From Octopus vulgaris (Eukaryota), in assembly GCA_951406725.2 (NCBI GenBank), contig OX597821.1, positions 9,424,001-9,488,000 on the forward strand: a DNA stretch of 64,000 nucleotides, written 5' to 3'. The notes beneath the pieces were generated by a model that saw only the letters and a program-made list of their open reading frames with translations, was not told the DNA's origin and ran no database searches. Both the position numbers and the translations under genes were made by a program. This document shows, one piece after another, positions 31,796-34,614 of this stretch. How positions within the stretch are numbered: the stretch's first letter is position 1; the number at the start of each line of letters is the position of its first letter.

Positions 31796-32252
31796 ATATA
31801 TACATATATATATATATATATATATATATATATATATATATATATATATAAACGTTTACCGAATTTTCTCGAGAACATTATTTCTTAGTGGTAAGATCAT
31901 ATGGGGGTCTACAGTTAGCATTTTAGATGCCCGCCTAGTGGTCATCCCTCTTATATATATATATATATATATATATATATATATATATATATATATATAT
32001 ATATATATATATATATATATATATATATATTAGTCAATTTAGGGTAGCAAAAAAATTCAATAGAAATTTATCGCTACCAGCGGCCTAGTGGAAAAGAGAA
32101 AATAGTCAACGACTAAATATATAAATATAACAATTTAGGAGTGACCTTAACAGGCCATTCGTCCACCAGAAAGAGCAGCCATAACTCACACCGCCAAGTA
32201 GTAGTAATTCAGAAATTAGGTGAAAATTTAAAAACATTTACCCTAATTCATC

Positions 32253-32350
32253 TTTTAGACGATGCATCGTTTCTGTGTCATTAATGATTAAATTAGCTTA
32301 ATTAAATTAAATTAAGCTAATCTACCATAGGTTACACTTCATCAGTAAAA
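32253..32350 (-). ncRNA. Type I hammerhead in array unit 1 (identical copies at 32727-32824, 33200-33297, 33674-33771)
   Basis: TTTTA-CTGATGA-aGTGT...ACACa-GAAAC-GATGCATC-GTC-TAAAA. Confidence 0.8.
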
Positions 32351-34242
32351 AACCTGGGAGAGACAAATATACACGAGGCGTCTGTATCGATGCCTACGGA
32401 ATATCTGTCTTAAAATTTTCAAGACTGACGTATTCGCGCCAAACTTATCAGCAGTAAATATAAACTGCCGATTCAATCTCAGAATTATTCAGAAAATTAT
32501 CAATTAGTCAATTTAGGGTAGCAAAAAAATTCAATAGAAATTTATCGCTACCAGCGGCCTAGTGGAAAAGAGAAAATAGTCAACGACTAAATATATAAAT
32601 ATAACAATTTAGGAGTGACCTTAACAGGCCATTCGTCCACCAGAAAGAGCAGCCATAACTCACACCGCCAAGTAGTAGTAATTCAGAAATTAGGTGAAAA
32701 TTTAAAAACATTTACCCTAATTCATCTTTTAGACGATGCATCGTTTCTGTGTCATTAATGATTAAATTAGCTTAATTAAATTAAATTAAGCTAATCTACC
32801 ATAGGTTACACTTCATCAGTAAAAAACCTGGGAGAGACAAATATACACGAGGCGTCTGTATCGATGCCTACGGAATATCTGTCTTAAAATTTTCAAGACT
32901 GACGTATTCGCGCCAAACTTATCAGCAGTAAATATAAACTGCCGATTCAATCTCAGAATTATTCAGAAAATTATCAATTAGTCAATTTAGGGTAGCAAAA
33001 AATTCAATAGAAATTTATCGCTACCAGCGGCCTAGTGGAAAAGAGAAAATAGTCAACGACTAAATATATAAATATAACAATTTAGGAGTGACCTTAACAG
33101 GCCATTCGTCCACCAGAAAGAGCAGCCATAACTCACACCGCCAAGTAGTAGTAATTCAGAAATTAGGTGAAAATTTAAAAACATTTACCCTAATTCATCT
33201 TTTAGACGATGCATCGTTTCTGTGTCATTAATGATTAAATTAGCTTAATTAAATTAAATTAAGCTAATCTACCATAGGTTACACTTCATCAGTAAAAAAC
33301 CTGGGAGAGACAAATATACACGAGGCGTCTGTATCGATGCCTACGGAATATCTGTCTTAAAATTTTCAAGACTGACGTATTCGCGCCAAACTTATCAGCA
33401 GTAAATATAAACTGCCGATTCAATCTCAGAATTATTCAGAAAATTATCAATTAGTCAATTTAGGGTAGCAAAAAATTTCAATAGAAATTTATCGCTACCA
33501 GCGGCCTAGTGGAAAAGAGAAAATAGTCAACGACTAAATATATAAATATAACAATTTAGGAGTGACCTTAACAGGCCATTCGTCCACCAGAAAGAGCAGC
33601 CATAACTCACACCGCCAAGTAGTAGTAATTCAGAAATTAGGTGAAAATTTAAAAACATTTACCCTAATTCATCTTTTAGACGATGCATCGTTTCTGTGTC
33701 ATTAATGATTAAATTAGCTTAATTAAATTAAATTAAGCTAATCTACCATAGGTTACACTTCATCAGTAAAAAACCTGGGAGAGACAAATATACACGAGGC
33801 GTCTGTATCGATGCCTACGGAATATCTGTCTTAAAATTTTCAAGACTGACGTATTCGCGCCAAACTTATCAGCAGTAAATATAAACTGCCGATTCAATCT
33901 CAGAATTATTCAGAAAATTATCAATTAGTCAATTTAGGGTAGCAAAAAAAATTCAATAGAAATTTATCGCTACCAGCGGCCTAGTGGAAAAGAGAAAATA
34001 GTCAACGACTAAATATATAAATATAACAATTTAGGAGTGACCTTAACAGGCCATTCTATTGAATTTTTTTGCTACCCTAAATTGACTAATTGATAATTTT
34101 CTGAATAATTCTGAGATTGAATCGGCAGTTTATATTTACTGCTGATAAGTTTGGCGCGAATACGTCAGTCTTGAAAATTTTAAGACAGATATTCCGTAGG
34201 CATCGATACAGACGCCTCGTGTATATTTGTCTCTCCCAGGTT

Positions 34243-34340
34243 TTTTACTGATGAAGTGTAACCTATGGTAGATTAGCTTAATTTAATTTAATTAAGCTAA
34301 TTTAATCATTAATGACACAGAAACGATGCATCGTCTAAAA
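34243..34340 (+). ncRNA. Same hammerhead in the inverted copy
   Basis: CTGATGA 34248-34254, GAAAC 34320-34324, GTC 34333-34335, stem I TTTTA/TAAAA. Confidence 0.8.
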
Positions 34341-34614
34341 GATGAATTAGGGTAAATGTTTTTAAATTTTCACCTAATTTCTGAATTACTACTACTTGGC
34401 GGTGTGAGTTATGGCTGCTCTTTCTGGTGGACGAATGGCCTGTTAAGGTCACTCCTAAATTGTTATATATATATATATATATATATATATATATATATAT
34501 ATATATATATATATATATATATATATATATATATATATATATATATATATATATGTATGTATGTATATATATTTGTGTCTGTGTATTTGTGTGTGCATAT
34601 GTTTGTGTGTCTGT

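What the first reader, a model, noticed from the sequence alone, without database searches (positions are those of the whole stretch)
32031..34468. Retrozyme-like array: 474-bp head-to-tail repeats, each carrying a hammerhead, ending in an inverted copy
Seen: 4.3 nearly identical non-coding units on one strand, then a switch at a TTC microhomology (~34054-56) into a ~415-bp inverted copy, all inside a (TA)n tract. Each unit has TTTTA-CTGATGA...GAAAC-GATGCATC-GTC-TAAAA, with a self-complementary helix III and a long AT palindrome in helix II. Established: PLE-associated minimal hammerheads with palindromic helix III cleave as dimers, and tandem HHR repeats (non-LTR retrozymes) yield monomer and circular RNAs. 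Inference: this is a recent insertion made by rolling reverse transcription of a ~474-nt circular RNA by a PLE RT, with terminal inversion. Caveat: the base of helix II is an A.A mismatch.
Basis: partly seen in the sequence, partly recalled or inferred. Interest (0 to 1): 0.85.

Follow-up and report, generated by a model that had tools for sequence, protein, structure and literature searches.

The report
Ribozyme repeat with Penelope-type paired ends
This is one copy of a young, non-coding 474-base jumping repeat that carries a predicted self-cutting hammerhead RNA and sits in TA microsatellites with two facing arms that start at two fixed, different points, as Penelope-like retrotransposons in the same genome do, so it is likely a known kind of parasite (a retrozyme) whose ends record how those enzymes insert it.

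Summary
The array is real: 4.3 near-identical 474-bp units (32031-34056), a TTC overlap, a 415-bp opposite arm (34054-34468), TA runs on both sides. It belongs to a dispersed family (217-246 exact hammerhead-word matches; 3,698 matches to an end motif shared with sister subfamilies). The hammerhead is conserved by compensatory change: 12 of 16 pairs over 18 variants. The A.A mismatch is fixed in the youngest lineage; older relatives mostly pair there. The 'terminal inversion' is not a chance end. Arms start at two fixed sites 96 nt apart (A, B), and every two-armed locus with both ends at such a site had one of each: 33 of 33 here, 19 of 19 in sister subfamilies, 10 of 10 in an intact Neptune/Nematis-type Penelope-like element of the same genome. 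This matches the two reverse-transcription start sites and the 'tail' known for such elements. Arm ends are not enriched at the cleavage site and show no scar there, which fits a circular or uncut template. Some arrays also grew by later local duplication. Cleavage, a circular RNA and the driving element were not shown. Verdict: new member of the non-LTR retrozymes, with unusually clear mechanistic footprints.

The parts
31952..32030 (.). Left (TA)n target run
32031..34056 (-). Arm A: 4.3 head-to-tail 474-bp units (unit starts 32031, 32505, 32979, 33452, 33926); hammerhead RNA strand is minus, so the plus strand reads as cDNA starting at site A
32029..32045 (-). Start site A (fixed outer end, abuts TA run; shares a CAATTTAGG motif with site B)
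32031..32126 (-). 96-nt 'tail' between sites A and B, present at this end only
   Evidence: analogy to PMC11167929
32251..32352 (-). Type I hammerhead motif, copy 1; predicted cut after 32258
32725..32826 (-). Hammerhead motif, copy 2; predicted cut after 32732
33198..33299 (-). Hammerhead motif, copy 3; predicted cut after 33205
33672..33773 (-). Hammerhead motif, copy 4; predicted cut after 33679
34054..34056 (.). Junction of the two arms, TTC shared by both
34054..34468 (+). Arm B: 415-bp opposite arm starting at site B (right end); RNA strand is plus
34241..34342 (+). Hammerhead motif, copy 5; predicted cut after 34335; A.A at base of helix II; 12-nt palindromic helix III
34268..34307 (+). 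AT-rich palindromic hairpin extending helix II (conserved in sister subfamilies)
34454..34468 (+). Start site B (fixed outer end, last 5 bases shared with the TA run)
34464..34572 (.). Right (TA)n target run

Best explanation
The array is a recent copy of a non-coding, hammerhead-bearing 474-bp repeat family that is likely inserted by the enzyme of a Penelope-like retrotransposon, which would nick both strands of a TA run and start one cDNA at site A and the other at site B of a likely circular RNA. Shown: the family, its TA targets, the two fixed ends and their strict A+B pairing, the compensatory changes in the hammerhead, and the same end pairing in an intact PLE family of this genome. Inferred: tandem transcripts are cut by dimeric hammerheads and ligated into 474-nt circles; a PLE RT-endonuclease, possibly a dimer, primes both strands; each cDNA runs on round the template for a variable length; the two cDNA ends are joined, often over 0-3 shared bases or a short insert. 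Some arrays then gain units by local duplication.
For: Family: 186 matches in the 39 candidates scored of 1,728; 246 and 217 exact word matches, controls 0; 3,698 end-motif matches. Ends: 37 of 59 mapped loci are two-armed; 33 have both ends at A or B and all 33 are A+B (chance at most 0.5^33); the other 4 have one end elsewhere; 34 of 37 have TA runs on both sides. Sister subfamilies (72-80% alike): 19 of 19 two-armed arrays A+B, read from the BLAST maps (one, L189, has a ragged B end). Intact PLE (753-aa RT plus C-terminal GIY-YIG frame): 10 of 20 loci could be scored at both ends, all 10 A+B. Frangieh 2024 (PMC11167929) found two RT start sites bounding the tail and extension on both strands in vitro. 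Hammerhead: 97% of cells paired, 12 of 16 pairs changed on both sides, 0 of 500 shuffles as high, slid controls 31-51%; helix III -1.0 kcal/mol as hairpin, -18.7 as duplex. Template: 5 of 96 inner arm ends fall within 10 nt either side of the cut site against 4.3 expected; no indel at unit positions 206-257 in 157 copies; 26 fixed haplotypes in 38 young loci; 8 of 33 two-armed young loci carry a variant seen in no other sampled locus yet fixed across both arms (9 of 9 units in L053); only 1 of 33 variable sites is shared by matching units of the two arms.
Against: No autonomous element sharing sequence with the unit was found: four PLE families and 30 short-loop hammerhead loci gave nothing beyond chance. 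Cleavage and circles are untested. The A.A mismatch replaces the usual G10.1-C11.1 pair, and the unconstrained fold (-26.9) slightly beats the active fold (-25.3). Frangieh 2024 found uncut RNA the main substrate for a PLE, and Li 2026 saw cleavage in only 1 of 9 predicted retrozymes. Variants shared by several units of one arm only (L031, L038, L046, L047, L182, L186, L187, L194) show that unit number can grow after insertion. L059 has a variant alternating in both arms, which a monomer circle cannot give. Loci were picked by a full-unit or hammerhead match, which favours long arms. The 18 aligned hammerheads were my pick from 42 stem variants found with a pattern that demanded the core, and they are related.
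Confidence: 0.68

Rival explanations
1. Same PLE-driven two-site insertion, but the template is an uncut linear read-through transcript of an existing array, and extra units come from that transcript and from later DNA-level duplication. The hammerhead is weak or dead in the youngest lineage.
For: A.A fixed in the youngest subfamilies; within-arm shared variants in 8 arrays; the alternating variant in both arms of L059; uncut RNA as main substrate in PMC11167929.
Against: Arrays would shrink each generation and should inherit unit-to-unit differences in both arms, yet 32 of 33 variable sites are not shared by matching units, and new variants are fixed across both arms in 8 of 33 loci. The youngest lineage still shows a double compensatory change in helix III. 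'Unique' means unique among 59 sampled loci, so a uniform unsampled source is possible.
Confidence: 0.26
2. A satellite-like repeat spread at the DNA level, with fold-back or repair events making the inversion; or a mis-assembled single unit.
For: No read or contig was seen to span this array; local duplication does occur.
Against: Fixed A and B ends on TA runs at dozens of dispersed loci, each with its own junction, the same end rule in a coding PLE, and RNA-level covariation. An assembly fault could alter the unit count here but not the family architecture.
Confidence: 0.04

Closest known systems
Metazoan non-LTR retrozymes (Cervera & de la Pena 2020, PMC7229834; Li, Clavereau & Pollet 2026, bioRxiv 10.64898/2026.07.22.740005)
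   Same: Non-coding low-GC (34%) tandem units, one type I hammerhead each, dimers to multimers, many dispersed loci, PLEs in the same genome; a mismatch at the base of helix II has precedent (U.U in axolotl HHR_Amex2).
   Different: 474 nt, above the ~170-400 nt of the 2020 paper but inside the 51-972 bp of the 2026 one; 55-nt AT hairpin on helix II; 12-nt palindromic helix III; fixed paired ends, two-armed inversion and TA targeting, which the parts I read do not describe for retrozymes. No pLTR match to an autonomous partner was found here.
Penelope-like elements with tail and inverted 5' copy (Craig et al. 2021, PMC8557442; Frangieh et al. 2024, PMC11167929)
   Same: Partial tandems, inverted copy, tail at one end only, (TA)n bias, hammerhead upstream of the start sites, two RT start sites.
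   Different: No ORF; tail is 96 nt against 30-40; both arms can hold many whole units. The papers say the tail is 'often' at one end; here the pairing is counted and has no exception in 62 loci of three groups.
Non-autonomous Chlamys elements such as MRC1 (PMC8557442, passage read)
   Same: Non-autonomous PLE with multicopy head-to-tail insertions.
   Different: Those share 3' sequence with their autonomous family and most Chlamys lack a canonical hammerhead; here there is a hammerhead and no partner was found.

Membership tests
Non-LTR retrozyme | Short non-coding tandem repeat, at least two units each with a type I hammerhead | tested here: met
Non-LTR retrozyme | Hammerhead core and three helices conserved by covariation | tested here: met
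   A.A at the first pair of helix II in the youngest lineage; no Rfam hit
Non-LTR retrozyme | Dispersed multi-copy family, no LTR or coding capacity | tested here: met
Non-LTR retrozyme | Self-cleavage of the transcript | not testable with these tools
   folding only
Non-LTR retrozyme | Expression as monomeric linear and circular RNA | not testable with these tools
   only contigs of runs guessed to be RNA were on offer
Non-autonomous Penelope-like element | Two fixed ends bounding a tail; tandem and inverted insertions; microsatellite target | tested here: met
Non-autonomous Penelope-like element | Sequence shared with the pLTR of an autonomous PLE | tested here: inconclusive
   no match in the four families and 30 hammerhead loci examined; the genome holds over 10,000 candidate PLE fragments per search, of which 150 were scored
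Minimal PLE hammerhead (Cervera & de la Pena 2014) | No or very short helix III, G10.1-C11.1 pair | tested here: not met
   4-bp helix III plus tetraloop; A.A in this copy, G-C in some older relatives

The most novel reading that the evidence does not exclude
Each inverted insertion is made in one step by a PLE enzyme dimer that grips one circular RNA at two sites 96 nt apart and runs two rolling cDNAs from opposite strands of a TA run; the strict A+B rule would then be the general cause of the tail and inverted structure of Penelope-like elements, and these arrays the first direct genomic record of animal ribozyme circles (occasionally dimer circles, as L059 suggests) being written into DNA.
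Probability: 0.35. Interest if true: 0.75.

Novelty: new member of a known kind. Interest (0 to 1): 0.48.

Why it matters
That PLEs mobilise animal retrozymes has rested on co-occurrence and on pLTR likeness; how PLEs make their tandem and inverted insertions is stated as open in PMC8557442. This family ties the two together through insertion anatomy and offers a 474-nt template, two mapped start sites and a young intact PLE enzyme from the same genome for an in vitro test. The element type itself is known, and the one-sided tail was already noted in words.

Tried and rejected
Rfam at E<=1 gave only microsatellite noise. RNA evidence: no RNA holder listed on record; contigs of runs guessed to be RNA cover parts of the unit but show no strand, end or circle, so they are not used. 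No contig in four runs bridged this locus's junction; uninformative. Partner hunt: the PLE family of window 47550-48299, that of window 25110-25760, the young 753-aa family, a fourth family and short-loop hammerheads with the same helix III loop share no significant sequence with the unit; none of the 88 family stretches tested, nor the 20, had an RT frame joined upstream. Stops at the cleavage site, as a cut linear monomer would give: rejected. Classical L1-type twin priming with a variable inner primer: rejected, both starts are fixed. Junction microhomology: only 15 of 37 junctions were cleanly resolved, 7 with 2-3 shared bases against 18% expected (p about 0.01); weak. Period-2 variants as proof of dimer circles: rejected except possibly L059, since most are confined to one arm. 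One search used a helix II misplaced by one column; one search replaces it. The sister-end motif scan failed to score B ends and was not used. Earlier findings: none by sequence, by place or by the long word list.

Full report
Observation. The window lies in a 2.8-Gb assembly of 227 contigs; its microsatellite load and a SINE at 31627-31795 look octopus-like to me, which is recall and not a tool result. TRF finds period 474, 4.3 copies, at 32029-34056. Units differ by one base or less. A 415-bp arm of opposite polarity follows, sharing TTC at 34054-34056, and TA runs flank both ends. Five hammerhead motifs are present. Below, q is the position in the unit, q1 = 32031; the RNA strand is the minus strand of the long arm.

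Family. A DNA search gave 1,728 candidates, of which 39 were scored with 186 matches. Exact words from the hammerhead match 246 and 217 times, a degenerate end motif 3,698 times, all with control 0. I mapped the window plus 58 loci (38, the first 20 further ones) and 50 stretches for sister subfamilies of about 488-493 bp at 72-80% identity.

Ends. Arms begin at q1 (site A) or q~97 (site B); both sites contain CAATTTAGG and abut TA runs. Of 59 loci, 37 are two-armed. In 33 both outer ends are at a site, and all 33 are A+B; four have one end elsewhere. Of 22 one-armed loci 14 start at B, 7 at A, 1 elsewhere; two A-armed loci show a B stub of a few bases on the far side. Sister subfamilies give 19 of 19 A+B by my reading of the maps. 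In both arms the cDNA strand points inward from the TA run, so each arm reads as a first strand primed on its own target strand.

PLE link. A young family with 753-aa RT plus C-terminal GIY-YIG frames, about 99% alike among copies, carries a Cx4CxxC linker, the mark that PMC8557442 gives for Neptune and Nematis. It sits in TA runs with its own two ends some 50-60 nt apart; 10 of 20 loci were scorable at both ends and all were A+B. It shares no significant sequence with the 474-bp unit, nor do three other PLE families. The driver is therefore inferred by architecture, not identified.

Hammerhead. Across loci the helix III palindrome occurs as ACGATGCATCGT and ACGTTGCAACGT in the young lineage and in further self-complementary forms in older ones; helices I and II swap pairs too. 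On 18 of 42 stem variants, 97.2% of cells pair, 12 of 16 pairs change on both sides, no shuffle of 500 reaches this, and slid structures pair 31-51% (the two innermost helix III pairs count dimer pairing). The first pair of helix II is standard in 13 of 18 and A.A in the youngest lineage. The active fold is 1.6 kcal/mol above the free fold, and helix III is far more stable as a duplex, so cleavage as a dimer is predicted. The circular unit folds at z about -6.8 against 30 shuffles.

Template. Inner arm ends are not enriched at the cut site (5 of 96, 4.3 expected); 88 of 96 arms cross it and 46 cross it twice or more, though the sampling favours this; no indel lies at q206-257 in 157 copies. 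A cut linear monomer is thus unlikely. Among 38 young loci there are 26 fixed haplotypes; in 8 of 33 two-armed young loci a variant seen nowhere else in the sample is fixed across both arms; only 1 of 33 variable sites is shared by matching units of the two arms. This fits a one-unit bottleneck at each round, as a circle gives. Against it: eight arrays have variants shared within one arm only, which points to later local duplication, and L059 needs a template with two unlike units. For the window's own array, whose units are nearly identical, rolling synthesis and a uniform linear template cannot be told apart.

Literature seen. PMC8557442: passages. bioRxiv 10.64898/2026.07.22.740005: parts 1-3 of 5, abstract to discussion. 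PMC11167929: parts 1-2 of 4, the main text. PMC7229834: passages and parts 3-4 of 6. PMC4209133: parts 1-2 of 4. No supplements were read. These already propose circles, dimers and PLE mobilisation, show two RT start sites in vitro, and note a tail often at one end only. Searches for a cephalopod retrozyme and for a two-primer account of PLE inversions returned nothing that reports this family or the counted pairing, within a library that lacks most subscription papers.

Verdict. Observation confirmed; interpretation right in kind, revised in mechanism. New member of the non-LTR retrozymes that works like a non-autonomous PLE; interest 0.48, chiefly for the A+B rule and the test it allows.

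Noticed in passing
G000, e.g. L229, L241, L242 (C5:58163500-58171000 and others): Young intact Neptune/Nematis-type PLE: a ~340-380-aa first frame, a probable intron, then a 753-aa RT-GIY-YIG frame; TA-targeted with A+B ends. Its pLTR holds a hammerhead-like motif with a possible U3-A8 core, a variant PMC4209133 describes.
   Followed up: partly
window 25110-25760 (+): 5'-truncated older PLE of the same type between TA runs; at 25670-25709 a minimal hammerhead-like motif with an A3-U8 core and GAAACCGGTC. Not tested further.
   Followed up: partly
window 47550-48299 (-): Fragment of another PLE RT; relatives in the genome have open frames over 1,000 codons.
   Followed up: partly
L059 (G000:C8:28910200-28917000): One variant alternates unit by unit in both arms in register (no, yes, no, yes / no, yes): candidate for a dimeric circular or two-unit template.
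   Followed up: partly
L279-L308, e.g. L283-L285, L292: A second, older hammerhead family (helix III ACACTGCAGTGT-type), partly in degenerate tandems of about 240-290 bp, unrelated to the 474-bp unit.
   Followed up: no
L145 about 120-190 (-) and 2390-2520 (+): Two further hammerhead-like motifs near a PLE fragment, one with a short helix II resembling that of this family.
   Followed up: no
window 31627-31795: High-copy SINE just left of the array (very high contig depth); identity from recall.
   Followed up: no
window 21882-23108 (-) and 29803-30195 (-): Remnants that read like a non-LTR retrotransposon C-terminus (408 aa) and a mariner-type transposase (130 aa); labels from recall.
   Followed up: no
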